From: Candidatus Eiseniibacteriota bacterium
Lineage (GTDB): Bacteria; Eisenbacteria; RBG-16-71-46; CAIMUX01; WJJG01
Direction of reading: 5' to 3'
NCBI GenBank assembly: GCA_023129715.1
Contig: JAGMBO010000008.1
Location: 58,340-122,339, forward strand
Length of the DNA: 64,000 nucleotides
Shown: positions 17,310 to 34,204 of the stretch, in pieces
How the letters are laid out: every line of letters begins with the position of its first letter
Position numbering within the stretch: position 1 is the stretch's first letter
Program-made: the position numbers and the translations under genes
The notes under the pieces: generated by a model
The model's input: only the letters and a program-made list of their open reading frames with translations
Databases searched by the model: none
Told to the model about the DNA's origin: nothing

Positions 17310-19358
17310 CTACTCGACGATTGCTTTCGCGAAAGCGTCCACGGAGTCTGAGTAGAAATCGATCGTGATCTTGGTCGCCAGGTCATCGGGCAGATCGAAG
17401 AGCTGCCGGCGCGAGGAGATCGGCATGAGCAATTGCAGCGCGCCCTTCTCGACAGCCAGCTCAGCAATGGCGACCGGATTGGGAATCATCTCCACGGATC
17501 CGCCGAGGTTCAAAGCCCCGACGACGATCAAGCCGCCCTTGATGCTCCTCTCGATGAGTCCGCCGCACAGGGCGAGGAGAACCGGCAGGCCGAGCCCGGC
17601 CCCGGAGCGTTCAACGTCCATCGCGCGCATCTGGATGGAGAACTCATGGCCTCGTGGGTCCCGGTCTCCAACCAGCTCCCTGGCGCGCGTATAGAGGTTC
17701 TGCTCCCCGTAGCGCACGCTCTCGCTGAAGGCGGGTGGCTTGGGGGCATTGAGGATCTTGACCCCACTACCACGTCCCACGCTGACCTCGATCCGATAGA
17801 GGGAGACTGCCCCCTCCTGACCACCCGGGCTGATCGCCCAGATCTGTCCGGGCGGCAACGGATCGGTTTCGATCGCGTCGTCGCTATGCAGCTCAGGAGT
17901 GGCAACAAACTGCTCGACCCCATCGACACCCATGAAGAAGCTGAAGTGGGTGTTGCGGAACTCCGCCTTGAGGCAGCGCTTCTGCTGCTCCTTCACCCGG
18001 CGCCGCGCTTCCAGAGCCCAGCGCACGATCGTCTCCAGTTCCTCATCTGGAACAGGCGTGGCGGGATCCGGGAAGATGAGTTTCAGCAAGCCGCTGGTGG
18101 TCTTGTGCACCGCTTCGATGTCGCGTCCGCTCAGGGCACCCCCCCAGTTTACCCGCCCCTGCAATGCGGGAACCCGACTACCGGTGCGTAGTTTATTCCA
18201 GCATTCGGAGAGGAAGTCGCTGACCAATCCAAAATGGTCGGTCAGATGCTCGCTGGCATTCAGTTTCGGGAAATCCCAGCCGGGAGCGTAGGCGTGCAGA
18301 CGGTCCATGAAGGCCGTGTCCCTACGCATCTCAGGTGGCAGGGGATCGAGCAGGTGACTGATGCGCTGCTGTTGTTCGACATCCAGGTCGAGGTTGCCCA
18401 CCATCACGATGGCACCGGAGGCCCGAATGCTCTCCTTCCCGCGAGAAAACTCACCCGAGGCCATGTAGCCCTTCATGATGTTGACGCCATCCTTCTTGTC
18501 GAAGGCGATCCCGGCCACCTCGTCGAAGCAGACGACATCGTAGAGGCAGACCAGCCCCCGCTGGCCATTGGCCATGTTGACGAACATCTTGGCGACGGTC
18601 GCCTTGCCGCCGGAGATCAGGTGGGCGTAGGGAGAGATCTGTTGGTAAAGATGACTCTTGCCAGTACCGCGGGGACCGAGTTCGACGAAATTGTAGTTAC
18701 TCTCGACGAAGGGAACCATGCGCAGCAGGGTCACCATCTTGGCGCGCTCCGACAGGGCTTCGGGCTCAAGGCCGATCGAGCGGATCAGCAGGTTCTTCCA
18801 TTCCTCGGTGGTGAACTGCGTGCGCGCCTTCTGGAGCACGGCCAGGACATCTGGCTTTGACAACTGGATGGCACGCAGGCTCTCGATGGCAAAGGGACGA
18901 CCGTTACGTTCCTCGGCAATCGTCGCACTGTAAGTGAGTTTGACCTCGGCGTAGAAGCCGTCGGTCAGCATCCGCTCGTGCTCATGAACCAGGTCATCAC
19001 CGATACGGACATCCCGGAGACCCACACTGGTCAGCTCCACCAGGAAACAATCGTTGCGGGAATCGAGGCGCGCCTTGACCAGATCGATCAGTTTGACCGA
19101 TCCCTTCTCGCGTGCGCGGGCCTTGAAAAGCTCCTGCTCCCCGGTCCGAACAGTCCGATCCTGAAGCTGGCGCTCCACCACTTGGAGACCTTCCTCGATC
19201 TCGGTCTCGTCGACCGTCGCACAATAGCGTCCCAGGAGGAATTCCACGACATAGGTCGGCACCGGATACTGTCGGCTGTACTTACGGACCAGGTCCTTGC
19301 GAACCAGGTATCCATCCAGAGCCGCTGCCGCGAGTTTGTCGAGGTGATCAAGTTCCAT
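17310..19358 (-). CDS. brxL: BREX system Lon protease-like protein BrxL
   Basis: 682 aa. Central P-loop region (ELGPRGTGKSHLYQQISPY), C-terminal Lon-protease-like domain and size match BrxL. Terminal gene of a brxABC-pglXZ-brxL cluster. Confidence 0.85.
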   Translation of the reverse strand: MELDHLDKLAAAALDGYLVRKDLVRKYSRQYPVPTYVVEFLLGRYCATVDETEIEEGLQVVERQLQDRTVRTGEQELFKARAREKGSVKLIDLVKARLDSRNDCFLVELTSVGLRDVRIGDDLVHEHERMLTDGFYAEVKLTYSATIAEERNGRPFAIESLRAIQLSKPDVLAVLQKARTQFTTEEWKNLLIRSIGLEPEALSERAKMVTLLRMVPFVESNYNFVELGPRGTGKSHLYQQISPYAHLISGGKATVAKMFVNMANGQRGLVCLYDVVCFDEVAGIAFDKKDGVNIMKGYMASGEFSRGKESIRASGAIVMVGNLDLDVEQQQRISHLLDPLPPEMRRDTAFMDRLHAYAPGWDFPKLNASEHLTDHFGLVSDFLSECWNKLRTGSRVPALQGRVNWGGALSGRDIEAVHKTTSGLLKLIFPDPATPVPDEELETIVRWALEARRRVKEQQKRCLKAEFRNTHFSFFMGVDGVEQFVATPELHSDDAIETDPLPPGQIWAISPGGQEGAVSLYRIEVSVGRGSGVKILNAPKPPAFSESVRYGEQNLYTRARELVGDRDPRGHEFSIQMRAMDVERSGAGLGLPVLLALCGGLIERSIKGGLIVVGALNLGGSVEMIPNPVAIAELAVEKGALQLLMPISSRRQLFDLPDDLATKITIDFYSDSVDAFAKAIVE

Positions 19359-19360
19359 GA

Positions 19361-21820
19361 CTACTCCTCACCACCGATTGTGGTGGCCGTCTTGCCCAGC
19401 ACGCGTCCGGACGGATCCAGAATGACCAGGCTAACGATCGTGCCTTCCAGAGAATCATCTTCCACGAGGAGTCCCGCCCGGCCGTCCGGGTCGAGCGATT
19501 TGGGTTGCGTGACACTTGAAGTGGGATCATTCGGCTTGGTGCGCAGGTCCGCCGTGAGCTGCGCGGTTGCAGCTTCCACCGCCATAGGCGCGCCCGAGGC
19601 TTCCACGGTGACCCGGCAGCGAAGCCCTCGCCACTGGATGTCGGTGATGGTTGCTTCCCGCGGTGCCACCTGGCTGCCGGCGGCAAGGCGCAGATCGGGG
19701 ATCAGGCACTCCTGCAGGCTGACGCCACCATGGGCGTACTCATTCCCACTCAGGAAGCAATGCACACCAGGACCATAGGCAAATCGCTCGTGCTCGTTCC
19801 AGTGCCATGCGGCAGTCGGAACATCCAAGTGGGAGCTATCCTTGATTGACGCACAGCGGCTCCAGCGGCTCTCGGTCAAGTACTTGGGCAACTTGACCGT
19901 CGGCAACCCGCCGGGAACCAGCAACCAGCCGTGATCGGTCACAACGCGCACCCGCTGCCATCCACTCTCGAGCAGACCCGTGATGCGCTCCAGGAGAAGA
20001 TCCAGTTGCTCATCGATTCGGGCTGCTAGCTTCGCTTTCAGACTGTGGCCGAGCTTGTCGAACTCCCCATACTCAGTCCAGCCGCGAGCGTTCGGCGCGT
20101 GGGGATCTCCCTTCTCGTCCGGCTCGAGGATCTGATGGCCGGAAGCAGACAGCAGCTTGCGAAAGCGAGCGGTGTTGATCGGCTGATGGCCGTCGATCGT
20201 CTCGGGCTGAAACCCCGACTCGGGCCGATGACCTGTCAGTTCCTCAGCAACAGGCGAAACAGCCGGCTTGGCGGTGGCGGTCACGGTGGGCAAGGCTGCC
20301 CAGCGCCAGCCGGCCACAACCTGAAGCCCGGCTTCCACGGCCGAGTCGACCAACCGCTGGGCAATGTCGAATCGAAGGCCATCGACAAAGAGAATGCACT
20401 CGCCCGTCTCAGCGCTAACGCGTACGGACCCGGGAAGACTTGAAGAACCAGGGAAACCAGAAGACCCGGAGGAAGCAGGACGCCCGGCAACCTCACTAAC
20501 CTGCCCGTGAGTTGACCGTTGGAGCCCGGCAGTCTCGACCTGGGACTGCAACCGCCGCGCAGAATCCTCCAGCCATGAGAGATAGAGACAGCGCACGGCA
20601 GCCTGGATGGCCTGGCAATCCTCGTCACTCTTGACCTCCGCGACGGCCCTTAGCGCCGCATCATCGGCGCGATAGGCTCCCTCCACATACAACTGCGCCA
20701 TGAAATCGGGAGAGTCGCCGCCGATCGCCTTCGCCGTTCGCTCGCTCAGGATCGTCAGGTGCCGAAGCGCTTGAGCCAGGGGACACATATCCAGCTTGGC
20801 CCAGACCCAGTCGCGGCGTGCGCCATGCTCTTCCTCCAATGCGGTGATCTTCTCCCGTCCTGCCGATGCGGGGATATCCCGCAACGCGAGCAGCTCAAGC
20901 CGGAGGGCGTCTTCGGCCGCATCGTTCTCATCCGGCCAGGAGTGCTTGTCGAAGATGATCTCTCCCGCGGGCTTGGCGCGTCGCAGGAGATCAGGGATCC
21001 CTGGGTAGAGGGCTGGCGACTCGGCGTAGCGCTGCCAGACCCCCTGCCAGGCATCGCGGCCGAGTCCGAGCTTCTCACCACCGACGATCTCACCGTCGTC
21101 CTCGGGATCGAAGGCGTAATCCTCCCGGCAGCGGGACCGAAATGCCGACCAGGCGGCTTCATCCCACTCCGCTCGCGTGCCGGCCGGATCTCCCAGCCAG
21201 AGGAGCAAGTCGCGGGGGATGTCCCCGATCATCAGCTCATCGAAATCCTTGGCCGTGAGCCGCCGACCGCGCAGCCGCGAGAGCGAGGTGGTGGTTATTA
21301 CGGAAAGTGCACCAAGCATCGCCTGACGAGTATGTGTGTCACGGACCATATCCAGACCCAGACCGCCGTCTTCCGATACCAGGAAGGCCTCGACAGTCCA
21401 GTCCTTGCCATTCTTCTGCGCCCAGGTTGTGCCGCGAAACTGCAGCTCGACCAAAGGCTTCATCGCATCGGGACACTCTTCTGCCGCGCGCAGCAGTTGG
21501 CGGCCAACTTCCGGCAGGTAGATAATCGGGGTCGCAGCTTCGGGCAGCGTGACTTCCGGCAAGCTGCGCTCGATCACACATCGCAGCCAGATGGCCGGTC
21601 CAGTTCGGGCGTTGGGGTTGTACTCCCCCAGGGTCAGTAGTTCCGGGAGCAACGACCGCAGCTGCTTGACGACCGGCCGCCACTGGCCATCCGGATCGGT
21701 CCACAGTATGGCGGCCGGTGCAACCACATCGGCAGGGTTGAATCGCCCGGCCTCCATGACAGAGGTCTTGACCGCCTCGAGCAGGGTGGCGTGCTGTTGA
21801 GTTGAGTGTTGCATCGTCAC
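19361..21820 (-). CDS. pglZ: BREX alkaline-phosphatase-superfamily protein PglZ
   Basis: 819 aa. VVTDHGWLLVPGG motif of the PglZ domain. Overlaps pglX by 4 nt and sits 3 nt upstream of brxL. Confidence 0.85.
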   Translation of the reverse strand: MTMQHSTQQHATLLEAVKTSVMEAGRFNPADVVAPAAILWTDPDGQWRPVVKQLRSLLPELLTLGEYNPNARTGPAIWLRCVIERSLPEVTLPEAATPIIYLPEVGRQLLRAAEECPDAMKPLVELQFRGTTWAQKNGKDWTVEAFLVSEDGGLGLDMVRDTHTRQAMLGALSVITTTSLSRLRGRRLTAKDFDELMIGDIPRDLLLWLGDPAGTRAEWDEAAWSAFRSRCREDYAFDPEDDGEIVGGEKLGLGRDAWQGVWQRYAESPALYPGIPDLLRRAKPAGEIIFDKHSWPDENDAAEDALRLELLALRDIPASAGREKITALEEEHGARRDWVWAKLDMCPLAQALRHLTILSERTAKAIGGDSPDFMAQLYVEGAYRADDAALRAVAEVKSDEDCQAIQAAVRCLYLSWLEDSARRLQSQVETAGLQRSTHGQVSEVAGRPASSGSSGFPGSSSLPGSVRVSAETGECILFVDGLRFDIAQRLVDSAVEAGLQVVAGWRWAALPTVTATAKPAVSPVAEELTGHRPESGFQPETIDGHQPINTARFRKLLSASGHQILEPDEKGDPHAPNARGWTEYGEFDKLGHSLKAKLAARIDEQLDLLLERITGLLESGWQRVRVVTDHGWLLVPGGLPTVKLPKYLTESRWSRCASIKDSSHLDVPTAAWHWNEHERFAYGPGVHCFLSGNEYAHGGVSLQECLIPDLRLAAGSQVAPREATITDIQWRGLRCRVTVEASGAPMAVEAATAQLTADLRTKPNDPTSSVTQPKSLDPDGRAGLLVEDDSLEGTIVSLVILDPSGRVLGKTATTIGGEE

Positions 21821-24800
21821 CTGCTGACCTCTTTCTCTGTGTCATTCTTCGCCCGAGCCTTGCGCTTGACAGCGATGGTGTAGTGACAGGCGTTGTATCG
21901 ATTGCCGTCGAACCTGCTGCCGCCCATCCAATCGGTTGTGCGCTCGTCCCAGCCCCAGAACCATGGATGCTCCTCGCGCTCCCTGCTGGGCTCCTTCCCG
22001 CGATCCTTGCCCCACTTGATGTTGGGCTTCCAGCGCAGGATCCCGGCACCCCTGCGCCCATTCGGCAAGTCACTGGCCAGGAACGGGCGGATGTTCAAGC
22101 GCACGCCATCGTTGATGTCGGGCTCCCAGCCGATGGGCTGTTCGGCGAGGGGTTTCCAGCGCACGAAGATGTCGAAGGGTGGCTCACCTGCGAGGATCGC
22201 CTCCAGGCGTTGCTTGAGTTCCATCGCCGCGGTTAAACGTTCTTCCGCACCGCCGGCACCTCGCTTGACACCATCCTTCTGACAGGTGATCCAGTCACCC
22301 AAATAGCTGTAGGTCAGGTTCTCAAGGAGCATGCGGGCTTGGGCCTTTCCCTCGGCCAGCCGGTGGTAGTTGACCAGCGCGTGGAACCCATCGCGCTTGC
22401 GCCCATCCCAGATGTGCCAGATGAAGGGGCGATGGTGTAACAGCTTGCAGTGTTGCTGGAAGAAGTCGCTGCGGAGCCAGTCGTCGAGGTCCTTGGCGGG
22501 CGATCCGCTCTCGGAAATGAGCGCCGCTTCCCTGTCTGGTGACCAGTCGGTGCCGTAGGCAGTGGCCAGGAGTGCGCGCAAGCGTTCGGCGGCAGGATCT
22601 TCACCGCGAACGGATGCGATGCAGACGATGCCGTCGCGGTCCGAATACCTCTCGAGTTCGCCACAGCGACCGATCAGTTCCCGGGCCTCGGTGGAGAGGC
22701 GCATCTCCTTGTCGGTCTCCGCCGGCCAGCGGTAGCCGAGGAGGCGACCGACGGCCACCTGCAGCGGAGCCGTCGAGACTTCGGGGCGACCGTGGAAGAG
22801 CCATTGGGTTGGGTCGTCGGAGTAGGGTTCGGGAAGACCGTGGGGGTATTTCTCGTCGGCAACCTTCTGCCAGTGTTCGAGATCGAAGGGGACTTTCGTA
22901 ATCGTGGCTGCTGTGACATTCAACTTCTGGTCGATCAATCGAACGCCTCTATGAAAGCCAGAAGATGAGACGTACGCCCACAGTGCGGGGATTATGGATG
23001 GATCATCCGGACATATCGGGCACACATTGTCATCAAAGACCTCGCCCAAGTACAAGAACGGCTCCAAGTCCCGCATCTTATTGACCGCGACGCCTAGACG
23101 TTCCCATACATCTTGACCACGGAGCCAGCATCCGAACTGGGAGACAAGATCTGGATGATCAAGGGGGCACACGCAGAATCGCTCGCGTCCCGACCAAGGA
23201 TCACCCGATTGAGGGGAATTCAACCAGAGGACGGCATCAGTAGAAATGCGAGCCACAGTCCAGAAATGCCGAAGGAACCGTGGGGCGTCTCCAGTGGTGC
23301 TGCCCTTGCCATAACGCGCGCATTCGCTCAGCCACGGGCCAGCCTCCGTCCCCTGACCAATAATCCTGGAATCCGGATTCTCCAACTGCCCTGCCTGGCC
23401 GACCATCCGTACCGCGCCCCAAGGCACATCGGAAGATGCCGCAACCCTGGACACGCCCGGCGAGCCTCCCCCTCCGTCACTGACGGCGCCCTCCTCCGGC
23501 GGCGCCCAACGCACCTCACCCCCCTCCCCTCGCAACATCGCCGCCTTTACCTTGGGATCCCGCGGCTCGGAGGCATCGAGACCGGCAAACCGATGCTCTG
23601 CTGCCGGGCGCGATCGCGTCAGGGAGAGGAGCGCTGTGAATGCCCCCGCTGCTTGTGAGCTCTGAAACCCGTTCTCCCCCAACCTCGCCACCACATCCCA
23701 CTGAACCTCCACCAAAAGCTCCTGGCGCAGCTTCTTGTACGATCCCAGAAAGAGCCAGTTCTGCGGCGTGACCAGTGCGGCCGTGCCGCCAGAAGCACAG
23801 AAAGCCCGGGCGCGCGCGACAAAGGCCGTGGCGAGATCATGCTTGGCCTTGTTGTGGCGCAGTTCAATGAATTCCTTGAGGATCGGAGCCTGCTTACCAC
23901 GAGCGAGGTAGGGTACATTGGTAATCACCAAGTGATAGATACTCCCAAGAAGGCCCACCGCATCAGCCACGCCGCGGGTCGAGACAGCCAACTCGTGGCG
24001 ATCGTAGTCACGCCCTCCGGGACTAGCCTGAGCTGCCTCTTCCAGCACCGAGCGCAGTTCATCGAACCCCGCCTCCAGCAGATCATCATGTGTCGCGCGA
24101 GCGGGGTCGATGAGGCTCCCCAGCGTGGGCGCCTCCTGAAAGAGTTTGTGCAAGCGCTCAATGCCCTTCTGCGTACGAAGATCATCACCGGCCAGGGCGC
24201 ACCAGTCGGCCTGACTTGCTTGCGGTGCGATGCCTGAGCAGGCGATGCGGATCTCGGGAAGCTTCCGATGCCCTCCCGCGTCCGGATAGGTCCATGCGCA
24301 CAGGGCGATCGCGAAAGCGGCGATTTGCGTGCAGCGCTCATCGATCTCGAGACCAGACAGATTCTCGCGCAGGACTGCATCCACAGCATCCCGAGCTGTG
24401 AAACCCTCCTCGGCCATGCGGATTGGCACGAGATGACGGATCAAACTCACCAAGAAGTGGCCGGAACCGCAACAGGGATCAAGCACCCGCAAGTCGGCCG
24501 CCGCTCGTGGCCAGCCCGGGAAGATACCCGCCGCCGGCTGCCAGGGCCTGTCACCATCGTCACCGCGTACGAAGCGCAGGTAGTCCCAGGTCACGCCAGG
24601 AAGAGACAGCGCCCGGCGGAGCTGTTCCTCACTCTCGGCGGAGGTTGCCAGAGATGGATCCTTCGATAGCTTTCTGCCGGCCCACCAGGCCCCCAGCGTG
24701 TTGTGGATCAAGAAGCTCACCATGTAAGGCTCGGTGAAGAGCTGGGTCACCGCCGGCAGCTCATCGGCGCCGATCTTCTCCCCGGATGCGTTGACCTCGG

Positions 24801-25377: not shown

Positions 25378-25608
25378 TTCAGGGCCTTCTCATTACTGGC
25401 GCTCTATAACAAAGCTCCATTCTCGATCTGCATGAGTCATATCGCCTGCACATTTCCAGGCTCGAAGAACGTCTGGCCAGATTTGGCCTCATCCCAGCAC
25501 ATCCGCGTTCGGAACCGCGTAACATCCACAACCATAATGGATTGCAGAACACTCAGGACATGCTGGCCGCGACCGACAAGACCCCAAACGGCCATCTCCG
25601 CTGACAAG

Positions 25609-25633
25609 GCCGGATTTGGCCGGATTTGGCCGA
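25609..25633. repeat. tandem 10-nt repeat (cggatttggc x2.5) in the non-coding block between the DUF4062 gene and pglX
   Basis: cggatttggc cggatttggc cgaat. A related ccagatttggcc lies ~130 nt upstream. Confidence 0.5.
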
Positions 25634-25974
25634 ATAGCAATCACGGGGCAGTTCCTGTGCGGCCTTGCCCCAAGGGCGGCCAGATGGAGGCGCTTCGCTC
25701 CGCGCACATGGGCGCACATGAGCAACCCCTTCCCTCAAAGCACGTTACGCCGATCCACAGCTCGAAAAATCCGCGCCCGTCACATGGCGCCACATATCCT
25801 CCTACGCCCAGAATGGCAGATAACGCGTATCCTTTCGTGACCCTCCGCCCTCCTTCTTAACCAGCTGTTGCCGGTGGAGAAGAATCGCGCATAGTTGGTG
25901 AAGGAGTGTTGAGTCCCGACTCTCGTCGCGCCCTGGATCTGCAGGGCGGTGCATCGGTGAGCCGATTGACCCAT

Positions 25975-27462
25975 TTATGAGCCATTTCCGGAACCATCGC
26001 CCGCTGATGAGCCGCTTGAGTCGTTTATGGGCCGTTTCCGTGGCACCTCGTAGTGGGCGCCGCGCCCAGCACCCGCCAGGACCAACAGGCCTTTGCTCAC
26101 CAGGTCGTCCAAGTCGCGTTTGGCGGTCGCCCGGCTGATGCCGGCAAGCTCCTGATACCGCCGGTTCGTAATCCGTCCCTCCCGTCGGGCAACGACCACG
26201 CTCTTTCTCTGCCGCTCGTTGAGTTCCATACCGGCCAGCACCTCCGTCGTCAGCCAATCCCGCCACAGTGCCTGGACGAACTGGCCTCCTTCCTGCCTGA
26301 ACTCAGGCTCGGGTAAGCCCGCCCCCCGGCACAGGGCGATCATGTCCAGCGTGCCGGTGCCGGCGCGTTCGATATAGTGGGCGAGAAAGAGCGCTTCGCT
26401 CAGAAGCGGGTTGCGGGGAATGGACGCGTGCGGGACGCGCAGCTGCGCCAGGGTCAGCTCCGGCGGCAGCTCCCCAGGGTTCCAAACCTCCAGCCGGTCG
26501 GCAAAGAGCATCACCTGGACGCTGGCGTTGCTAGCGTAGTCGCGGTGCGCCACGGCGTTGACGATGGCCTCAGCCACGGCTTCGCGCGGGAACTCGTACG
26601 CGACGGGCGCCTGCGGACCCCGGGCGCGTGTGCCCACGGAGCGGGTGACCTTGGACATCACAAAGTCGACCGCCTGATCCACCAGCTCGAACGCCGTGCC
26701 CTTGTAGACCTGGTAGGACGGGATGGGCTTGCGCACCTCGGTGCCGTGGAAGTGCAGGCACTTGACTTCGGAGGCGAGCAGGAAGCGTTGCGGCTGGTTG
26801 GCGAACAGAAGGATGGCGGCGTGGCTGGGCCGCCCGGCGTCGAGCAGGTTGAGATGGGCTAGCACTTCGGCTGGTGGCGTTTCCTCGCCGAGCGGGTACT
26901 GTCGCTCGCGGCGGGCGCTGCCGAGGAACCACCGCACCTTCTCCGCCGAGATGTCCTCGACTGAGGCTTCCGGACAGGCCGCCGCATCGAAAGGCCGCGT
27001 GCGGAGCTTGCCGGTTCGCTCGAGGTGCTCGACCAGGCTGGCGTACAGGGCGCCGGTCAGCTCGGGAATGCCCGCGAACCGACGGCGAATCACCTGCCCA
27101 CCCGCCTGGCGGATTAGCGCCCGCATCTTCGGGTGTCGTCCTTTGTTGGTCGAACCCTTCACGAAGATGAGCCGGACCTTGTTTTGGGCCGTGGCCTTAT
27201 CGAACTCTTGCTCGGTGGGTGAGATCCCCTCGGCATCCTCACTGCCGTACTCGTTGCCCAAGAGCCCCAGGTAGAGGGCGCAGCGGCCCACCTCGTCGAG
27301 GTAGACGTCATCAGCCCGGCGATCGGAGGCGGGCAGACCTTCGAAGAGGAAAACATCGAAGAAGCGCCGCAGCAGGGCATCGCCGCGGACGAAGGCCCGA
27401 ACGGCGGCCCGTTCGTCTTGGAGTTCCTTCTGGACGCTGCTGACGAAGATGCGCTCGATCAT
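25975..27462 (-). CDS. DUF4062-domain / HATPase_c_4 (RecG-C-terminal-like) / winged-HTH protein (COG2865-like without AlbA_2 head), embedded in the BREX operon
   Basis: Start at MIERIFVSS. The N-terminal ~140 aa match the DUF4062 pattern (IFVSS..EL..ER.AV...V....L...F..F.FE.LPA.D..ADDVYLDEV..C.LYLGLLGNEYGS). The middle region has LTNAGLLLFG-like LLFANQPQRFLLASEVKCLHF. The HATPase_c_4 signature is AEAIVNAVAHRDY...DRLEVWNPGELP. The C-terminal wHTH is ITNRRYQELAGISRATAKRDLDDLVSKGLL. Confidence 0.6.
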   Translation of the reverse strand: MIERIFVSSVQKELQDERAAVRAFVRGDALLRRFFDVFLFEGLPASDRRADDVYLDEVGRCALYLGLLGNEYGSEDAEGISPTEQEFDKATAQNKVRLIFVKGSTNKGRHPKMRALIRQAGGQVIRRRFAGIPELTGALYASLVEHLERTGKLRTRPFDAAACPEASVEDISAEKVRWFLGSARRERQYPLGEETPPAEVLAHLNLLDAGRPSHAAILLFANQPQRFLLASEVKCLHFHGTEVRKPIPSYQVYKGTAFELVDQAVDFVMSKVTRSVGTRARGPQAPVAYEFPREAVAEAIVNAVAHRDYASNASVQVMLFADRLEVWNPGELPPELTLAQLRVPHASIPRNPLLSEALFLAHYIERAGTGTLDMIALCRGAGLPEPEFRQEGGQFVQALWRDWLTTEVLAGMELNERQRKSVVVARREGRITNRRYQELAGISRATAKRDLDDLVSKGLLVLAGAGRGAHYEVPRKRPINDSSGSSAGDGSGNGS

Positions 27463-28065
27463 CGGGACCCCTCCGCGAAGCCGAGGGTCGGCTCTCCGAT
27501 GTTCTTGATGCGGCGTCTGGCCATGAGTCCATCCATGGGTTTGCATAGGTGGGCGGTTGATTTTCCGTTCGCGCCGGGCGTGAAGACCCCTCGGAAGCGG
27601 GCCCCTTGGTCTTGCCTGCGCCTTCCCGTTCTACCGAGGCAACCGACCCAGGCCCGACATCCTATCGCTCTCCGTGGGCGGTTGCATCCCCGCGGAGTGC
27701 TGTTGGCAGTGGAGAAAACCGCGCTTGGCCTGCGCTCTCCGGCGGGCGCGTGGAACCGCTGTACCAACCCCCGGTCGATGGCATCTCGGATGACGCGAGA
27801 AGCCATCGAGTAGTTCTTCTTGTCTATTCGCAGGCGTTCTCGCAGCGTGCTGTTGCTCATCTGTCTTCCAGATACATGGCAGAGACATGCATGCTGGTAG
27901 CAGGCACGAACCGCAGATCGGCGTTGCTCTCCTTGAACTCGACCCATTCAGTCTCTTTGGGAAGAGCGCACAGAGAATGCACTCGCTGTGCCAACTCCTC
28001 CGCGCTCATCAGGCCATGCGCACGCTCTGCCACATACCCCTGGTTCATCAGGCTCTGTCCCTCCA

Positions 28066-31000
28066 TCACGTGATCACGATCGGGCCATCCTTGAGCTTGC
28101 TCACGAGCTCGCTCTCGGTTTGAGCAAGCCAGCGCTTCACATCCGCTTCCGTCTTGAGTGTTGCGCTAACCAGACGAACAGACTGCACCTTCGGCTCCAG
28201 CAGCCTGGCGGCCGCCACCGCTGCCTTGGCGAATTGCTGCGGAAGCGCATCCGTTTTCGTTTGCCAGGTGGGCAGCGGGGTTTCTTCAAGAGAGCGGAGC
28301 AACTCGGCTTCGTCGCCGATCGAAAGCGGGAGCACCGCGACGATGCCCTCGGAGGCCAATAGATCTTTCCGCTGCTCGGCCGAAAGGCTCTTCCAGATCT
28401 CGCTTGCCGTTAGCGCGGCCATTTGGGCGTCGAAGGTCTTGGTGAACCTGGCATGCTCTTCTTTGACAGCGCGGCGCAACGCATTCACCGCCTGTTTGCG
28501 GATCTCCGGTAGAAGATCGGTGGCCTCCAGCAACCGTCTCTCAGCTTTGACCGACTCGGCCTGACTTCTCAGGTCGTCAGCCTCGGGTAGGGTGACGGCA
28601 TGGTCGATCAATCGCACCAGCTGCTCCCAGGCGGGCATGCGCTTGGCCGCTAGATCGGCCAGCTTCGTCCAACTCGCGACTTGCTCGCTCAAAACATCAT
28701 GTTGGCTGAGCATCTCGCCGAGCTGTTCGTTGCCGGCCAGAGCGCGCAGGGTATCGAGATGCTCCGTCTTTGGCCTCTCAGGCAAGGGCATCTCTCCACC
28801 CGCCCGGTCGGCCAGATCAGCCAAGCGCGCCAGAAACTCGCCGGCCTTGAGAGACTCCTCGTTGGGGTTACAGGTCACGTCCAAGCCACGGAACAGCTTG
28901 CGAAGCTTGATCCGCTCGGGAGTACTGACGATGACTGACTCGATCCGGAAATCGGTGACCGAGATCTTGGCCTGGTCGAGCTGCCCGGCCTTCAGTGCTG
29001 CGCCTTTGTGGGTCGCCAGCAGCTGCCCCGCAGTGAAGAGAGTCAGGAGAGCTGCGTCCACCGCGTCACGTGGCCAGCCGTAGGGACTCGTCTCGAGCGT
29101 ATCCCGGATCTCCTTGCCCCGCCTTCCCGAACCCACCTCGTTGCGAACGACCGCACAGACCGAATGGTTCGCCGCCGGCTGGTCCCAATCGACAGCCTGC
29201 AAGGCACTCTCATCGCCATTTCGTGCCCGGCGAATCACCGCCGGCCAGCGTTCGTCATCGGCATCCTTGAAGTCAGGGAAAAGCCGATCGAGAGAAGCCT
29301 TCGCCGCAGCACGGATCTTCTCGACCAGTTTTAGCTCGAAACGCTCATTGCCCCCGCCCTGGACAACCTTCCCCCGATCGATCACCTCAGCAATGATCTG
29401 GTCGCGGGCAGCCAGGGCAGCGCCCATTCGCGTCGTCATCGCATCGCGTGCTTCGAGCCCCTCGGGGGAGGTGGGCGTTCCCTTGAAACCGAGTGTGGCC
29501 CGGGCGGCTTCGTATTCGAGGATCGCCTTCTTGAGATCCTCGGCACTGGACTTCGGAATGTGAACGTAGATGATCGGACTGTCGTGCCCGGCGGCTCGCG
29601 CATCTCCCAAAACGGTGGCCTCGCTTTCTCCCCAACCATCCCGAATCCAGACCGGGATCTCCCTCCCGGCACTGGCGGGCGGCTCGGGGCCGAAGTGGGG
29701 CGTCAGCTTGCGGGGCTCCTTGCAGGCGCCCTGGAGCATCTTGATGCTCTTGAGCACGCCCGCGCAGCCGTCGGTGATCAGGGCGGCGTGTTTACTGGCG
29801 AGCGTGGTCAAATCACTGCCGAGCCGCGTTCGGCGATTACGGAACTCACGATCCCACTCGCTGCTCTCGCGGGTCTGTAGGCTGTACTCGTCATCGAGCT
29901 TGATCAGGATGCCCTTTTCAACGAGTTGGTCCAGTACCGGCGGGAGCTCCTTACGCAACCGTGTGCCATCGCTGGCCAGATCACTGACCAGAAGATCCGC
30001 CAGCGTGGCCGGGGTGGCCCGCACGCCGATATCTGCCACTTCCTCGCGGGGGAGTTTCCGGATCAGAAAGACCAGACCGCACACCCGCTTGGCGAAGCGG
30101 CCCTCGGGGGTACTGTTGTCAAGGTTGCGGATCGTCTCATCGATCTCCCGCAAGAGCACGCCGCTGCGCAGCAAGCCGGGCTGGAGCTGATCAAAGATGA
30201 AATCACCCGGCACCACGTTGCCCAGCTCTTCATCGGCCAGCTCGCGGACCGAGTCGTAGACAATGCGCAGTTGGGTGCGGAGCTGGCTGCTGGTGCCGGG
30301 CACATCGACGGCCCGCAGCGTGTGTTCCCAGAACCTGCGGCGCACCGGAAGGAGCGGATAGTCGTCAACCATCACGGCACGGTCAGCACTGCGAGCAGCG
30401 ATGCGGGTGCCCGAGAGCTGGCGGTCGATCTCGCCGGCGTGGGATGTCAGCATTTCCTCGATCGCCTTGCGTCGATCGGCCTTCTTGGCTAGCACCACGC
30501 GCCGGGTGACGGTCTCAACATCGGTGTCCGACAACTCGATCGGAATCGTGAAGCGCCCTATCATCCGCTGCAGAAGAGGATCGCTTCCCGCCAGGGCGAT
30601 CTGCCCGGCCCCAACCAGCAGCACGCGACTGTCGAGCTGCTTACAGAGTGCCTCGGCCACCTCCTGGACATCAGTCGACCGAGTTGCGCTGCCCCCAATG
30701 AAGAGCTGGATCTCATCCAGGACAACCACTGTACTAGGAATCTGGCCATCGCGCGTCAGGACGTCGCGGATGATCCGGATGAAGTCGCTGGTGGGCAGAT
30801 CTTCCAGAACCGGGAACTGTGCCCGCAGAGCCATGCGTGCCTGTTTCAGATCGGGCGCGAATGTTGGATCGGCCGTGAGAACCGCCTCGGCCAACAGGGG
30901 GCTGACATAGAGATCATGCAGCTCCTCTCTGAAATCCCGGCGGGCAGCCGTCACCGCATCCCTGACATGGTCAAGGATCCCGTTCTTCTGCAGCCACAGG

Positions 31001-31512
31001 CAGAATTGCGCCTGCGGCAACGACTCCGGGAGACCGGCCGATCGCAGGATGATGCCGAGTACCGCCAGCCGGACACTCTCCCCACCACCGGATGGCAATG
31101 TCCCGGAGGCCGCGTGGAGACCACCGCAGCGCTTTCCGAAGGTATCCAGCTCCTTGAGGAGATCCCGCACATCCTGCGGCAGCCGGGCCAGGCCGCGGGC
31201 GCTAGCCCCGTCGGACTCGAAGCAGGTGTCTACCCACAGGTGACGAAACATCTTGAGCAAGTGGGACTTGCCGCTCCCGTAGAAGCCGCTCACCCAGGCC
31301 GCCGGCTGGGTCGCTGAATCGACGCTGCCAAGGTAGGATTCCAGGATGCGCGTCAGACCATCCTCGTATTGCCCCTCGCAGACGAAGTGCTCCAGCTCGG
31401 AGCGCAGGGTTTCGATTTCCTTCGGGGTAGTAGCCTCACCTACCGCCGCCACACCATCGTTGACCAGCCGTGCGACGGCAGGGTCACGCTGAAAGATCTC
31501 TCGGTTCTTCAT
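28066..31512 (-). CDS. brxC: BREX P-loop ATPase BrxC
   Basis: 1148 aa with Walker A GFYGSGKSHLLKM near the N-terminus. Large alpha-helical remainder. Positioned after brxB. Confidence 0.85.
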   Translation of the reverse strand: MKNREIFQRDPAVARLVNDGVAAVGEATTPKEIETLRSELEHFVCEGQYEDGLTRILESYLGSVDSATQPAAWVSGFYGSGKSHLLKMFRHLWVDTCFESDGASARGLARLPQDVRDLLKELDTFGKRCGGLHAASGTLPSGGGESVRLAVLGIILRSAGLPESLPQAQFCLWLQKNGILDHVRDAVTAARRDFREELHDLYVSPLLAEAVLTADPTFAPDLKQARMALRAQFPVLEDLPTSDFIRIIRDVLTRDGQIPSTVVVLDEIQLFIGGSATRSTDVQEVAEALCKQLDSRVLLVGAGQIALAGSDPLLQRMIGRFTIPIELSDTDVETVTRRVVLAKKADRRKAIEEMLTSHAGEIDRQLSGTRIAARSADRAVMVDDYPLLPVRRRFWEHTLRAVDVPGTSSQLRTQLRIVYDSVRELADEELGNVVPGDFIFDQLQPGLLRSGVLLREIDETIRNLDNSTPEGRFAKRVCGLVFLIRKLPREEVADIGVRATPATLADLLVSDLASDGTRLRKELPPVLDQLVEKGILIKLDDEYSLQTRESSEWDREFRNRRTRLGSDLTTLASKHAALITDGCAGVLKSIKMLQGACKEPRKLTPHFGPEPPASAGREIPVWIRDGWGESEATVLGDARAAGHDSPIIYVHIPKSSAEDLKKAILEYEAARATLGFKGTPTSPEGLEARDAMTTRMGAALAARDQIIAEVIDRGKVVQGGGNERFELKLVEKIRAAAKASLDRLFPDFKDADDERWPAVIRRARNGDESALQAVDWDQPAANHSVCAVVRNEVGSGRRGKEIRDTLETSPYGWPRDAVDAALLTLFTAGQLLATHKGAALKAGQLDQAKISVTDFRIESVIVSTPERIKLRKLFRGLDVTCNPNEESLKAGEFLARLADLADRAGGEMPLPERPKTEHLDTLRALAGNEQLGEMLSQHDVLSEQVASWTKLADLAAKRMPAWEQLVRLIDHAVTLPEADDLRSQAESVKAERRLLEATDLLPEIRKQAVNALRRAVKEEHARFTKTFDAQMAALTASEIWKSLSAEQRKDLLASEGIVAVLPLSIGDEAELLRSLEETPLPTWQTKTDALPQQFAKAAVAAARLLEPKVQSVRLVSATLKTEADVKRWLAQTESELVSKLKDGPIVIT

Positions 31513-32072
31513 CCGTCAAATGCTCCATTGTGTAACGTGATCGGGACAGCCAGGTAGTTCCAGCCGTCGCGGGCATCCAACAAGCGGTAGTTGTTGTCGT
31601 CGAACTCGCCTGGAAAGAAAAGCACCAAGCGTCCGCGGATGTCCCTGGCGATCTCTTTCAGGATCAAGGAGACCTTGGCGAAACCGAACAAACTGGCAAC
31701 GCCGTGAACCGCGACCACGGTCTCCTCATCTACCTCATCGTCGGTCAGGGACGCACGCAGGCGCTCGGCCGCGAACTTCACGAAGTCACTGCGCAGTTTC
31801 ATGCCGATCGACTCCGGCTCCTCGAAGTAGACCTGGCGATATTCAGTGCCGGCCATCCAGCGAGCAAACACCCCCGTGAAGTCGAAGCCCTTCCACTTGT
31901 GCCCCGCCCCGGTCGTCGCCATTTCGAAGAGCTCGATGCGGGCACGCAACCTCCGCTCATCCGTCTTTGGGTAGACGACGAAGATCGTTTTCTGGTCCCC
32001 GGCGAGGTTTCGTAGCCAGGGAGCGGAGATGTGATTCCTGTAGCGCCCGGCGAGATCTTCAATGCGTCCCAT
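31509..32072 (-). CDS. brxB: BREX protein BrxB (DUF1788)
   Basis: 187 aa with a DUF1788-like sequence (IFVVYPKTDERRLRARIELFE...). 4-nt overlap with brxC. Confidence 0.8.
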   Translation of the reverse strand: MGRIEDLAGRYRNHISAPWLRNLAGDQKTIFVVYPKTDERRLRARIELFEMATTGAGHKWKGFDFTGVFARWMAGTEYRQVYFEEPESIGMKLRSDFVKFAAERLRASLTDDEVDEETVVAVHGVASLFGFAKVSLILKEIARDIRGRLVLFFPGEFDDNNYRLLDARDGWNYLAVPITLHNGAFDG

Positions 32073-32880
32073 TGAGCAGCTGCCTTTCCTTCGGCGTCAG
32101 GAGCCGAGCAAAGGAGACCTCCACAACGCCTCCAGACTGGGTCACATCGAGGAGTCCGAGACGTCTGGCATCGATCGCCTGCTGAACCAAGCTCTCCGGT
32201 GGACTATCGAGGATCTGGGCCCAGAAGGAATGAAAGAACCCCATTCCACGTGTCCCGGTAGCGTGGGCAAGCAGCAGCGCGAAAGCGGTCACGGCAGGTG
32301 TCGGCTGCACCTGTTGGCGGACCTTTCGTCCCCGTCCCCTCAAGTGTCCAGACTGGGTCCATGATGCAGCGGCGTTTCGCACAACCTTGTCTACGGTGCT
32401 ACTGCTGAGCCGCCCGTGGACACTGCCGGCAATGGCATCGGTGAGTTGTTGGCGGGCAAGCTCCTCGCCCTCTTGCATGCGGCTGATGACCTCGGCGGTG
32501 CTTCGCAGAAGAGGATCGCGCGCCAGTGCGGTCAGTAGGGCGAGCAATGGACGACCGCTGCGCTCTGCTTGCCAGAGAAGACGCAGGAGTCGGAAGAGAG
32601 GTATCGCGGGATCCAGGCCGTAGAGCTCACGAAGCCGCTGGAGGGACAGCTTCCGCGTCGCAGCCGTACGCTTGCCCAGGCAATTGCGCGCAAGGATGGC
32701 TTCGGCATACCTCTCCCTAGCGGCCTGGATGGGGCATTCCTCAAGCGCGCGCGCCAGCTCGGGCAGCATGATGGTCCGACTGGTGTGCGTCCCTTTGTCT
32801 CCAAGGCGGATGCCGAACTCTCTCAGATGGTCATGCGTGATGGACTTGGGCAACCGCGCTTCAATTGGGTCATGTTGCAC
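32059..32880 (-). CDS. brxA: BREX protein BrxA (DUF1819)
   Basis: 273 aa. First gene of the cluster. Helical protein with a DUF1819-like profile. 14-nt overlap with brxB. Confidence 0.7.
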   Translation of the reverse strand: MQHDPIEARLPKSITHDHLREFGIRLGDKGTHTSRTIMLPELARALEECPIQAARERYAEAILARNCLGKRTAATRKLSLQRLRELYGLDPAIPLFRLLRLLWQAERSGRPLLALLTALARDPLLRSTAEVISRMQEGEELARQQLTDAIAGSVHGRLSSSTVDKVVRNAAASWTQSGHLRGRGRKVRQQVQPTPAVTAFALLLAHATGTRGMGFFHSFWAQILDSPPESLVQQAIDARRLGLLDVTQSGGVVEVSFARLLTPKERQLLNGTH

Positions 32881-34120: not shown

Positions 34121-34156
34121 CAATCCGCTCCCATCTCGACGCGCACGCCCGCGCAT

Positions 34157-34204
34157 TCCCACCATCCCGCCTTCGCGCACTCCCACCATCCCGCCTTCGC
34201 GCCA
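34157..34204. repeat. 24-bp perfect tandem duplication upstream of hypothetical gene 33176..34120
   Basis: tcccaccatcccgccttcgcgcac x2 (one mismatch). Confidence 0.6.

What the first reader, a model, noticed from the sequence alone, without database searches (positions are those of the whole stretch)
17310..32880. Complete type 1 BREX locus (brxA-brxB-brxC-[insert]-pglX-pglZ-brxL) on a compositionally distinct segment
All six canonical type 1 BREX genes are present in canonical order on the minus strand with short overlaps. The hallmark motifs are present: BrxC Walker A GFYGSGKSHLLKM, PglX motif I DPCCGSGHFLV, PglZ TDHGW, a BrxL Lon-like domain, BrxA DUF1819-like and BrxB DUF1788-like. Codon usage in the block is visibly less GC3-biased than the flanks. 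One example is aat gta ccc tac ctc gct cgt in pglX. The flanks are ~68% GC housekeeping-like genes. This fits horizontal acquisition of a defence island. The canonical brxC-pglX adjacency is interrupted by a ~2.7-kb insert, described in a separate finding.
Basis: partly seen in the sequence, partly recalled or inferred. Interest (0 to 1): 0.6.

Follow-up and report, generated by a model that had tools for sequence, protein, structure and literature searches.

The report
Complete type 1 BREX defence locus
This stretch of an uncultured Eisenbacteria genome carries a complete, apparently intact six-gene BREX anti-phage system of a known but experimentally unstudied branch; it is an ordinary find, apart from a layered accessory-gene insert and a conserved palindrome in front of the first gene.

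Summary
Window 17310-32880 (minus strand) encodes brxA-brxB-brxC-[2.7 kb insert]-pglX-pglZ-brxL. PADLOC assigns all six proteins (E from 4.5e-79 to 0). NCBIfam assigns BrxL, BrxC and 'BREX-1 PglZ type B'. The three quoted motifs are present exactly, and every catalytic or nucleotide-binding motif sits in a column that is invariant across 59-81 relatives. The block is compositionally distinct, but only modestly: GC 62.5% against 65.5%, GC3 0.74 against 0.80 (p=0.0014). Horizontal acquisition is consistent with the data but not demonstrated. There are no mobility genes, no tRNA, no boundary repeats, and no empty site could be found. The closest relatives (PglX up to 60% identical) are scattered over many phyla. 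The locus belongs to a branch far from the studied E. coli, Salmonella and Acinetobacter systems, and PglX carries NVPY instead of NPPY. The insert is nested: a DUF4062 (TIR-like NADase)-HATPase_c_4-wHTH gene sits inside the relic of a Schlafen-type accessory gene. A 22-bp palindrome lies 19 nt upstream of brxA and is conserved in 37 related loci. Verdict: a new member of a known kind, of low to moderate interest.

The parts
17310..19358 (-). brxL, 682 aa: AAA+ ATPase with a Lon-protease-like C-terminal domain
   Evidence: PADLOC BrxL 1.1e-287. TIGR02653 scores 631.8 bits against a cutoff of 628.25. Pfam finds BrxL_N and BrxL_ATPase. The protein aligns over its full length with Acinetobacter BrxL, PDB 8EMC, E 2.7e-147. 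Walker A (GPRGTGKS) and Walker B (D279, E280) are invariant in 59 relatives.
19361..21820 (-). pglZ, 819 aa from the GTG start (the NCBI call starts at ATG 21814, 817 aa): alkaline-phosphatase-fold phosphodiesterase/nuclease, 'type B'
   Evidence: NCBIfam BREX_PglZ_1_B scores 887 bits against a cutoff of 400. PADLOC PglZ 6e-300. D480, T514, D629-H630 and H697 are invariant in 71 relatives. In a profile comparison these residues align with the corresponding motifs of Acinetobacter type-A PglZ. A Ser/Gly-rich insertion at about aa 443-468, just before the catalytic domain, falls in insert states of the 13-sequence subfamily profile.
21817..25377 (-). pglX, 1186 aa: gamma-class N6-adenine DNA methyltransferase and specificity subunit
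   Evidence: PADLOC PglX E=0, 1540 bits. Pfam finds N6_Mtase, Eco57I and MmeI_Mtase. PDB 8C45 (Salmonella PglX) matches at E 2.3e-34, with NVPY 487-490 aligned to its NPPY. Motif I (DPCCGSGHF) and N-V-P-Y are invariant or nearly so in 81 relatives. The protein scores below the NCBIfam BREX_1_MTaseX cutoff (304 against 500).
25378..25801 (-). non-coding stretch upstream of pglX; holds one copy of the motif ATGTGGCGCCATGTGA (25780-25795) and three GGCCAAATC(C/T)GGCC repeats
   Evidence: Sequence read; repeat family D2. The motif ATG[TA]nnCGCCATGT[GA]A is found only in the three loci with the same accessory gene (L013, L016, L058) and in the window.
25802..25855 (-). last codons and stop of the relic Schlafen-type accessory gene (...GGGSRKDTRYLPFWA*)
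   Evidence: tblastx matches the C-terminus of the intact 488-aa genes of L058 and L016. DNA alignment.
25975..27462 (-). accessory gene, 495 aa: DUF4062 (TIR-like NADase domain), a middle domain, HATPase_c_4 and a winged HTH; carried on an inserted segment of about 1.9 kb (about 25856-27755)
   Evidence: Pfam DUF4062 1e-20, HATPase_c_4 4.5e-20, DIP2311-like_C 2e-6. GC3 is 0.82, host-like. All 120 listed homologues with the same architecture are 66-100% identical, and those that carry organism names come from several phyla. Residues 291-474 align with the HATPase_c_4/wHTH part of the L058 Schlafen protein (27% identity, E 1e-9). An 18-nt direct repeat (16/18) lies at both junctions, 25864-25881 and 27699-27716.
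27756..27923 (-). relic accessory gene, C-terminal wHTH piece (ACYQHACL...MSNSTLRERLRIDKKNYSMASRVIRDAIDRGLVQ), out of frame with the N-terminal piece
   Evidence: tblastx gives 57-59% identity to L058 9660-9827 and L016 8940-9107. Intact 488-aa genes are listed.
27857..28066 (-). 69-aa ORF: N-terminal stub of the relic Schlafen/AlbA_2 gene (...LPKETEWVEFKESN...), start overlapping the brxC stop; about 1.16 kb of the gene is deleted after it
   Evidence: tblastx matches 27917-28009 to the N-termini of the L058 and L016 genes. The L058 gene is SLFN_AlbA_2 plus HATPase_c_4. NCBI calls a 69-aa gene here.
28066..31512 (-). brxC, 1148 aa: P-loop ATPase
   Evidence: PADLOC BrxC E=0, covering 1-1147 of 1148 residues. 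NCBIfam BREX_BrxC scores 750 bits against a cutoff of 400. Walker A (GFYGSGKS) and Walker B (LDExQ) are conserved in 66 relatives. There is a weak match to the solved BrxC 9ZDX, E 6.6e-10.
31509..32072 (-). brxB, 187 aa
   Evidence: PADLOC BrxB 4.5e-79. Pfam BrxB scores 27.2 bits against a cutoff of 26.8. hhalign against the Acinetobacter DUF1788 protein gives probability 69%, E 4.3e-5.
32059..32880 (-). brxA, 273 aa from the GTG start
   Evidence: PADLOC BrxA 6e-99, plus two further BrxA models. There is no Pfam, NCBIfam or PDB hit. hhalign against the Acinetobacter DUF1819 protein gives probability 72%, E 3.5e-5 over 89 columns. The N-terminus is conserved from residue 1 in the closest relatives.
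32898..32919 (.). conserved palindrome TCGCCGGCATACTAGCCGGCGA (brxA sense), 19 nt upstream of the brxA start; candidate operator or 5' hairpin
   Evidence: It is the only exact GCCGGC-N6-GCCGGC in the window. Of 32 exact copies in 1.67 Mb of related loci, 29 lie within 120 nt upstream of brxA. The palindrome (at most one arm mismatch) is present in 37 related loci, with compensatory arm changes. Covariation count: 76.9% of cells paired against 30-54% when slid, and 0 of 500 shuffles reach the observed score.

Best explanation
Window 17310-32880 is a complete and probably functional type 1 BREX (bacteriophage exclusion) system in the chromosome of an uncultured Candidatus Eisenbacteria bacterium.

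Expected mechanism, by analogy with studied type 1 systems (inferred, not shown here):
- PglX, helped by BrxA, BrxB, BrxC and PglZ, methylates the adenine at position 5 of a 6-bp non-palindromic motif on the host genome.
- Incoming phage DNA that lacks the mark is kept from replicating.
- This exclusion needs the BrxC ATPase and the metal-dependent nuclease/phosphodiesterase PglZ. Depending on the system, it also needs the DNA-loading AAA+ ring BrxL.

The locus belongs to the 'PglZ type B' branch. In this branch PglX carries NVPY instead of NPPY, and there is no BrxR regulator.

The block was most likely acquired horizontally at some time in the past and is now partly ameliorated.

The brxC|pglX slot first held a Schlafen-HATPase_c_4-wHTH accessory gene. 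That gene decayed through an internal deletion and a frameshift. It was then split by the insertion of a DUF4062 (TIR-like NADase)-HATPase_c_4-wHTH gene. That gene plausibly acts as a separate, abortive-infection-type back-up.

A conserved palindrome upstream of brxA probably controls expression of the operon.
For: Shown here:
- All six families are assigned, with full-length matches, in the canonical order on one strand.
- The same gene order holds in 80 related loci.
- The ORFs are intact, and relatives align end to end.
- All catalytic and NTP-binding residues lie in invariant columns.
- BrxL is close to the solved Acinetobacter BrxL. The PglX motifs align to Salmonella PglX.
- Type-B profiles of BrxA, BrxB and PglZ connect to Acinetobacter type-A proteins, with catalytic motifs in register.
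- The block differs in GC, GC3 and tetranucleotide content.
- The nearest relatives are spread over Bacillota, Armatimonadota, Planctomycetota, Methylomirabilota and others. Another Eisenbacteria locus (L022) is less similar than these.
- The relic accessory gene and the nested insertion were reconstructed against the intact genes of L058 and L016.
- DUF4062-HATPase_c_4 homologues occur alone, in defence islands and inside a DUF499/DUF1156 BREX-related system.
- The palindrome is conserved and covaries.

From the literature:
- Roles of PglX, PglZ, BrxL and BrxC, and the gene requirements for methylation and defence (PMC11341690, PMC12205998, PMC10164562).
- Schlafen-HK-wHTH genes are linked to BREX in at least 1017 taxa (PMC12839542).
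- DUF4062 is a TIR-like NADase used in single-gene defence (preprints 10.64898/2026.05.01.722283 and 10.64898/2026.06.25.731849).
Against: - No functional data exist for this locus, and I found none for any member of the type-B branch. A text search for 'PglZ type B' found nothing.
- BrxA, BrxB and PglZ have no sequence-detectable match to any solved structure. Their profile links to type-A proteins are only 69-77% probability.
- PglX scores below NCBI's BREX-1 PglX cutoff.
- The sequence comes from a metagenome-assembled genome, so expression and even strain-level integrity are unknown.
- The horizontal-transfer step lacks direct evidence. There is no empty site, mobility gene, tRNA or boundary repeat.
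- In relatives, the BREX core GC departs from the flanks in both directions. Gene-intrinsic composition could explain this as well as transfer does.
- Promoter-like and terminator-like sites are at chance level.
Confidence: 0.88

Rival explanations
1. The locus is a decaying or silent remnant. The genes look intact, but the system no longer protects or methylates.
For: One gene inside the locus is demonstrably a relic, with an internal deletion, a frameshift and a split. No promoter could be recognised. PglZ carries a low-complexity insertion that lies in insert states of the subfamily profile. The sequence comes from a MAG.
Against: All six core ORFs are full length against relatives. Every catalytic or NTP-binding residue that is invariant in 59-81 relatives is retained. 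The upstream palindrome is intact. Gene junctions are tight or overlapping, as in an operon.
Confidence: 0.08
2. The lower GC and GC3 of the block reflect constraints of the BREX genes themselves (amino-acid composition, expression level), not foreign origin. On this view the locus is ancestral to the lineage.
For: Across 53 related loci the BREX core differs from its flanks in both directions. It is higher in low-GC hosts and lower in high-GC hosts, with a mean of +2.1 points. There are no mobility genes, tRNA or boundary repeats. The nearest relative is only about 60-70% identical, so any transfer was not recent.
Against: The same pattern is what incomplete amelioration after repeated transfer would give. 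Similarity does not follow taxonomy: the other Eisenbacteria locus (L022) has PglX 54% and BrxL 77%, whereas Neomoorella and planctomycete loci have 60% and 82%. Tetranucleotide signature also departs from the flanks, not only GC3. Type-B systems occur on large plasmids.
Confidence: 0.2
3. The system is not type 1 but another BREX type (5 or 6) or a BREX-related DUF499 system.
For: PglZ and PglX give weak secondary hits to BREX-5 and BREX-6 models. PglX is below the BREX-1 cutoff.
Against: PglZ passes the BREX-1 type B equivalog at 887 bits, while the BREX-5 and BREX-6 hits are about 30-35 bits against cutoffs of 250 and 400. BrxL is present. No helicase (BrxHI/HII), BrxE, PglW, BrxD, BrxP or BrxF was found among the ORFs of the block or its flanks. 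The gene order is that of type 1.
Confidence: 0.02

Closest known systems
BREX type 1, 'PglZ type B' branch (NCBIfam NF033450), for example the compact loci of Neomoorella sulfitireducens SLA38 (L003) and an Armatimonadota MAG (L005)
   Same: The six genes and their order are the same, as are the NVPY motif in PglX, the absence of BrxR and the GCCGGC-N6-GCCGGC palindrome upstream of brxA. Identities are BrxL 81-82%, BrxC 67-68%, BrxB 71-72%, PglX 60%, PglZ 60% and BrxA 57-59%.
   Different: Those loci are compact. The window has a 2.7-kb nested insert between brxC and pglX, and a low-complexity insertion in PglZ.
Experimentally studied type 1 BREX with PglZ type A: Acinetobacter (NEB394; p3ABAYE locus L090), E. 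coli HS, Salmonella and E. fergusonii pEFER
   Same: The six-gene set and order are the same. BrxL is homologous over its full length (about 39% tblastn identity to Acinetobacter plasmid loci; E 2.7e-147 to PDB 8EMC). PglX motif I and motif IV positions align. PglZ catalytic motifs align in a profile comparison.
   Different: PglZ, BrxA and BrxB are too divergent for phmmer or tblastn detection. PglX has NVPY rather than NPPY. There is no WYL regulator BrxR and the upstream cis element is different. In p3ABAYE the accessory gene lies in the pglX|pglZ slot; in the window it lies in the brxC|pglX slot.
Schlafen(AlbA_2)-HATPase_c_4-wHTH accessory genes linked to BREX (Rakesh & Krishnan 2026, PMC12839542)
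   Same: L058 and L016 carry an intact gene of this type in the same slot. Homologues of the shared sensor part lie next to pglZ in 20 other loci. The window keeps recognisable N-terminal, C-terminal and tail pieces.
   Different: In the window the gene is a pseudogene. The live gene next to it has a DUF4062 head in place of the Schlafen nuclease lobe.
Single-gene DUF4062 defence systems (Swarozyc, Evangelion; 2026 preprints)
   Same: There is an N-terminal DUF4062 domain with an SPTEQEF stretch. This resembles the 'acidic-SYT' region that is said to hold the catalytic glutamate. A variable C-terminal auxiliary region follows. The gene occurs alone or in defence contexts.
   Different: Here the auxiliary region is a HATPase_c_4 plus wHTH module shared with bacterial Schlafens. 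In the two DUF4062 preprints I could open, word searches for HATPase, Schlafen and BREX found nothing. NADase activity is untested.

Membership tests
BREX type 1 | PglZ (alkaline-phosphatase-fold) protein | tested here: met
   NF033450 scores 887 bits against a cutoff of 400. PADLOC gives 6e-300. The metal and nucleophile motifs D480, T514, DH629-630 and H697 are invariant.
BREX type 1 | BrxC/PglY P-loop ATPase with Walker A and B | tested here: met
   NF033441 scores 750 bits. PADLOC gives E=0 over the full length. The motifs are conserved.
BREX type 1 | PglX N6-adenine methyltransferase with motif I (GxG) and motif IV ((D/N)PPY-like) | tested here: met
   DPCCGSGHF is present. Motif IV is NVPY, a clade-wide variant aligned to the NPPY of PDB 8C45. 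The protein is below the NCBIfam BREX_1_MTaseX cutoff (304 against 500) but scores 1540 bits on PADLOC PglX.
BREX type 1 | BrxL Lon-like AAA+ protein | tested here: met
   TIGR02653 scores 631.8 bits against 628.25. Pfam finds BrxL_N and BrxL_ATPase. PDB 8EMC matches at 2.7e-147.
BREX type 1 | BrxA (DUF1819) and BrxB (DUF1788) small proteins upstream of brxC | tested here: met
   PADLOC gives BrxA 6e-99 and BrxB 4.5e-79. The Pfam BrxB hit is marginal and there is no Pfam DUF1819 hit. hhalign against Acinetobacter DUF1819 and DUF1788 proteins gives probabilities of 72% and 69%.
BREX type 1 | Order brxA-brxB-brxC-pglX-pglZ-brxL on one strand, without the marker genes of types 2-6 | tested here: met
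   No helicase, PglW, BrxD, BrxE, BrxF or BrxP was found among the ORFs of the block or the flanks.
BREX type 1 | Strand-asymmetric N6mA at a 6-bp motif, and exclusion of unmethylated phage without DNA degradation | not testable with these tools
   This needs methylome sequencing and phage assays.
DUF4062 TIR-like NADase defence proteins (insert gene) | DUF4062 domain with conserved catalytic glutamate | tested here: inconclusive
   Pfam DUF4062 scores 74 bits against a cutoff of 24.7, residues 32-118 of the 523-aa ORF. The sequence shows SPTEQEF. Assigning this to the catalytic Glu rests on the preprint's verbal description, not on an alignment to its proteins.
DUF4062 TIR-like NADase defence proteins (insert gene) | NAD+ hydrolysis and abortive infection | not testable with these tools
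   No tool here can test this.
Bacterial Schlafen-HATPase_c_4-wHTH accessory gene (relic) | Intact SLFN_AlbA_2 nuclease domain followed by HATPase_c_4 and wHTH in one frame | tested here: not met
   Only about 31 N-terminal residues, about 56 C-terminal residues and a 15-codon tail remain. They are in different frames and are separated by the 1.9-kb insertion. The 50-aa stub gives no Pfam hit.

The most novel reading that the evidence does not exclude
The 22-bp palindrome in front of brxA (core GCCGGC-N6-GCCGGC) may be the operator of a self-contained regulatory circuit of BrxR-less BREX systems. On this reading it is bound by one of the six core proteins, most plausibly the DNA-binding BrxA. 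The support:
- It is kept in 37 related loci from many phyla.
- It occurs in either orientation.
- It shows compensatory changes in both arms.
- In hosts with recognisable promoters it sits at the expected transcription start.
This would be a mode of BREX autoregulation that I did not find described. The alternative, a 5'-terminal mRNA hairpin, is not excluded.
Probability: 0.3. Interest if true: 0.5.

Novelty: new member of a known kind. Interest (0 to 1): 0.33.

Why it matters
On its own, the locus is one more BREX-1 system among thousands (3464 taxa in PMC12839542). Three things give it modest value.

First, it belongs to a widespread branch that is far from every studied model. The scan found at least 583 relatives among species-representative genomes. 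PglZ, BrxA and BrxB are barely alignable to the studied proteins, and PglX carries NVPY. Conclusions drawn from the E. coli, Salmonella and Acinetobacter systems therefore need testing in this branch.

Second, the brxC|pglX slot records a readable history of accessory-gene turnover. A Schlafen-headed gene decayed and a NADase-headed gene with the same sensor module was inserted into it. This illustrates effector swapping inside BREX.

Third, the conserved palindrome gives a concrete, testable handle on how BrxR-less BREX operons are controlled.

Tried and rejected
- Empty-site test for horizontal transfer. Exact-protein look-ups of BrxL and the left-flank 320-aa protein returned only the same context on 4 contigs; one search failed because of a wrong start codon. 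A metagenome scan with the right-flank 1236-aa protein gave only distant (31-51%) or truncated relatives and no synteny across the junction. The test is inconclusive.
- Boundary repeats. There are no direct or inverted repeats of 10 nt or more between the two ends of the block.
- Mobility markers. There is no tRNA or tmRNA. Pfam scans of 30 flanking ORFs found no integrase or transposase.
- Other defence genes. PADLOC finds nothing in 10 flanking proteins, so 'defence island' in the multi-system sense is rejected. The upstream 337-aa ORF (33176-34189, GC3 0.76) has no homologue in any related BREX locus and no family hit, so it is not part of the system.
- Known RNAs. Rfam finds nothing in the window.
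- Promoter and terminator scan. The counts equal chance.
- Direct sequence links of PglZ, BrxA and BrxB to solved structures failed. I replaced them with profile comparisons.
- Literature. Searches for the assembly accession and for 'PglZ type B' found nothing. The third DUF4062 preprint could not be opened.
- I did not predict structures. The family assignments did not depend on them.

Full report
**What is there**

- brxA 32059-32880
- brxB 31509-32072
- brxC 28066-31512
- pglX 21817-25377
- pglZ 19361-21820
- brxL 17310-19358

PADLOC profiles assign each to its BREX family with near end-to-end matches: BrxA 6e-99, BrxB 4.5e-79, BrxC 0, PglX 0, PglZ 6e-300 and BrxL 1e-287. [quoted passage not shown]

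Pfam is much less informative. It finds BrxL_N and BrxL_ATPase, methyltransferase domains in PglX, and a marginal BrxB hit (27.2 bits against 26.8). It finds nothing for BrxA, PglZ or BrxC, even at E<=10.

The three quoted motifs are present letter for letter. Junctions are tight:
- brxA/brxB overlap by 14 nt.
- brxB/brxC overlap by 4 nt.
- pglX/pglZ overlap by 4 nt with the GTG start, or are adjacent with the ATG that NCBI uses.
- pglZ/brxL are 2 nt apart.

**Source**

The sequence is contig DAOVPT010000005.1 (175 kb) of assembly GCA_030629055.1. NCBI labels its proteins Candidatus Eisenbacteria. The flanks encode ordinary metabolic and secreted proteins:
- a molybdopterin oxidoreductase with Fe-S and NrfD subunits
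- acetyl-CoA hydrolase
- an aminotransferase
- a radical SAM protein
- a serine hydroxymethyltransferase (SHMT)-like protein
- a gingipain-like peptidase with an FlgD-Ig tail

**Is the system intact?**

I scanned one genome per species with PglX. This gave at least 583 relatives, of which I kept 80 loci. tblastn with the window's proteins shows the same A-B-C-X-Z-L order throughout. Alignments run over the whole length of each window protein, so no core gene is truncated.

In alignments of 59-81 relatives, every functional motif of the window's proteins falls in an invariant or nearly invariant column:
- BrxL Walker A and B
- BrxC Walker A and B
- PglX motif I, DPCCGSGHF
- PglX motif IV, which in this whole clade is N-V-P-Y rather than NPPY
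- PglZ D480, T514, D629-H630 and H697

The PglZ residues correspond to the metal and nucleophile positions mutated in E. fergusonii PglZ (T538, H741; PMC12205998). In a profile comparison they line up with the matching motifs of Acinetobacter PglZ.

**Relation to studied systems**

BrxL aligns over its full length with the solved Acinetobacter BrxL (8EMC, E 2.7e-147). PglX matches Salmonella PglX and E. coli BrxX at E about 1e-34, and NVPY aligns to NPPY. BrxC matches only weakly. PglZ, BrxA and BrxB have no phmmer match in the PDB.

tblastn of PglZ against 72,556 plasmids finds only 8 full-length relatives (33-41% identity), mostly on large replicons, and none in Escherichia, Salmonella or Acinetobacter. 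BrxL finds 335 plasmids, with a clear split between 63-73% (type B) and about 40% (type A) identity.

Profiles of the type-B proteins do connect to the type-A proteins of A. baumannii p3ABAYE:
- BrxA to the DUF1819 protein: probability 72%, E 3.5e-5
- BrxB to the DUF1788 protein: probability 69%
- PglZ: probability 77% over 561 columns

The locus is therefore a genuine type 1 BREX system, on a branch remote from every experimentally characterised one. I found no paper on a type-B member, but this is not an exhaustive check.

**Composition and origin**

The block has GC 0.625, against 0.655 for the rest of the window and 0.67-0.70 for the adjacent 3-4 kb. Mean GC3 of the six core genes is 0.736, against 0.804 for 30 other genes (p=0.0014). 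The lowest-GC 15.6-kb block of the window is this one. Tetranucleotide distance is raised across it.

The difference is real but modest, and several things leave horizontal transfer unproven:
- There is no tRNA, integrase, transposase or boundary repeat.
- No empty site could be found, because close relatives of this genome are not in the collections.
- In 53 related loci the BREX core departs from its flanks in both directions. This fits repeated transfer with partial amelioration, but also gene-intrinsic composition.

The best argument for transfer is that similarity ignores taxonomy. The most similar loci are in Neomoorella, Peptococcaceae, Armatimonadota, Planctomycetota, Methylomirabilota and Geobacter. 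Another Eisenbacteria MAG (L022) is less similar than these. I rate past horizontal acquisition as likely (about 0.7) but not shown. No other defence gene lies in the flanks.

**The insert**

Interruptions are the rule in this clade. Of 74 loci, 30 have more than 1 kb between brxC and pglX. Of 71 loci, 55 have more than 1 kb between pglX and pglZ. Only 12 of 68 are compact at both junctions.

In L058 (Syntrophus) and L016 (Geobacter) the brxC|pglX slot holds an intact 488-aa SLFN_AlbA_2-HATPase_c_4-wHTH gene. This is the class reported next to BREX in at least 1017 taxa (PMC12839542). The window keeps only fragments of that gene:
- a 69-aa stub starting on the brxC stop codon (28066-27857, '...LPKETEWVEFKESN')
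- after a deletion of about 1.16 kb and a frameshift, the wHTH end (27923-27756)
- the last 15 codons with the stop at 25849-25802, 1.9 kb further on, followed by the same downstream motif (ATGTGGCGCCATGTGA) as in L058 and L016

The intervening 1.9 kb carries a 495-aa gene with DUF4062, HATPase_c_4 and a wHTH. Its GC3 (0.82) is host-like. It shares only the HATPase_c_4/wHTH part with the Schlafen gene. All 120 listed homologues of the same architecture are 66-100% identical, and those that carry organism names come from several phyla.

Four homologues were inspected in their genomic context:
- one lies inside a DUF499/DUF1156/SNF2 BREX-related system
- one lies in a defence island
- one lies next to an IS200-type transposase
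- one lies among metabolic genes

DUF4062 has recently been described as a TIR-like NADase used by single-gene defences. An 18-nt direct repeat (16/18) sits at both junctions of the inserted segment. A match of that quality is expected about once by chance in this region, so only its placement is suggestive.

**A conserved cis element**

Nineteen nucleotides upstream of the brxA start lies TCGCCGGCATACTAGCCGGCGA (32898-32919). This is the only exact GCCGGC-N6-GCCGGC in the window. In 1.67 Mb of related loci the exact pattern occurs 32 times, and 29 of those lie within 120 nt upstream of brxA.

Allowing at most one arm mismatch, 37 related loci carry the palindrome, nearly all those whose BrxA is at least about 47% identical. 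The more distant sub-clade and the type-A Acinetobacter locus lack it. Further properties:
- Arms change in a compensatory way: GCCTGC/GCAGGC in four loci, ACCGGC/GCCGGT in three and GACGGC/GCCGTC in one.
- Outer arms extend to 8-14 bp with varying sequence.
- The spacer consensus AAACTW appears as its reverse complement in about ten loci.
- 76.9% of cells pair, against 30-54% in slid controls, and 0 of 500 shuffles reach the observed covariation.
- In low-GC hosts with clear sigma-70 boxes, the element begins 4-8 nt after the -10 hexamer.

The element could be an operator or a 5' mRNA hairpin. Its occurrence in both orientations favours a DNA site. Its presence in compact loci from many phyla suggests that the binding factor is one of the core proteins. 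That last step is inference only. I found no description of this element in the literature available here.

**Verdict**

The locus is a new member of a known kind. The nested accessory-gene history and the palindrome are the only parts that go beyond routine annotation.

Noticed in passing
window 32898-32919: A palindrome, TCGCCGGCATACTAGCCGGCGA, lies 19 nt upstream of brxA. It is conserved in 37 related BREX loci from many phyla, with compensatory arm changes, and occurs in both orientations. It is absent from the distant sub-clade and from type-A Acinetobacter. It may be an operator or a 5' hairpin.
   Followed up: partly
window 25780-25795; L058 9881 and 9968; L016 9161 and 9248; L013 3409-4046: The motif ATG[TA]nnCGCCATGT[GA]A is repeated 1-6 times between the Schlafen-type accessory gene and pglX. 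It is found only in loci that carry that accessory gene or its relic.
   Followed up: partly
window 25864-25881 and 27699-27716: An 18-nt direct repeat (16/18 identical) lies at the two junctions of the 1.9-kb DUF4062 gene insertion. A match of this quality is expected about once by chance in the region, so only its position is suggestive of a recombination or duplication scar.
   Followed up: partly
window 25474-25631: Three copies of GGCCAAATC(C/T)GGCC, two of them in tandem, lie in the 424-nt non-coding stretch upstream of pglX. This stretch is about 300 nt longer than the equivalent spacer in L058 and L016.
   Followed up: no
window 58000-64000: This is a second compositionally atypical stretch: GC about 0.61, GC3 0.70-0.72, and the highest tetranucleotide distance in the window (0.267). 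It encodes a metallo-beta-lactamase-fold protein, a GNAT acetyltransferase and a zinc alcohol dehydrogenase.
   Followed up: no
window 33176-34189 (minus strand): A 337-aa ORF with a signal-peptide-like N-terminus lies directly upstream of the BREX block. Its GC3 is intermediate (0.76). It has no family hit and no homologue in any related BREX locus, so it is unclear whether it arrived with the block.
   Followed up: partly
window 20417-20494 (PglZ aa 443-468): A Ser/Gly-rich low-complexity insertion (EVAGRPASSGSSGFPGSSSLPGSVRV) lies just before the PglZ catalytic domain. It falls in insert states of the 13-sequence subfamily profile.
   Followed up: no
L036, L047, L049, L053, L067 (related loci): A second PglX-like match lies within 8 kb of pglX. 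This is consistent with the programmed inversions already described for BREX-1 pglX (PMC9881135).
   Followed up: no
53 related loci (L003-L082): The GC of the BREX core genes departs from the local flanks in both directions. It is higher in low-GC hosts and lower in high-GC hosts, as if the family were pulled towards 55-65% GC.
   Followed up: partly
window 52993-57524: A gingipain-like C25 peptidase and an aminotransferase both end in an FlgD-Ig-like domain. This may be a lineage-specific secretion or sorting tag.
   Followed up: no
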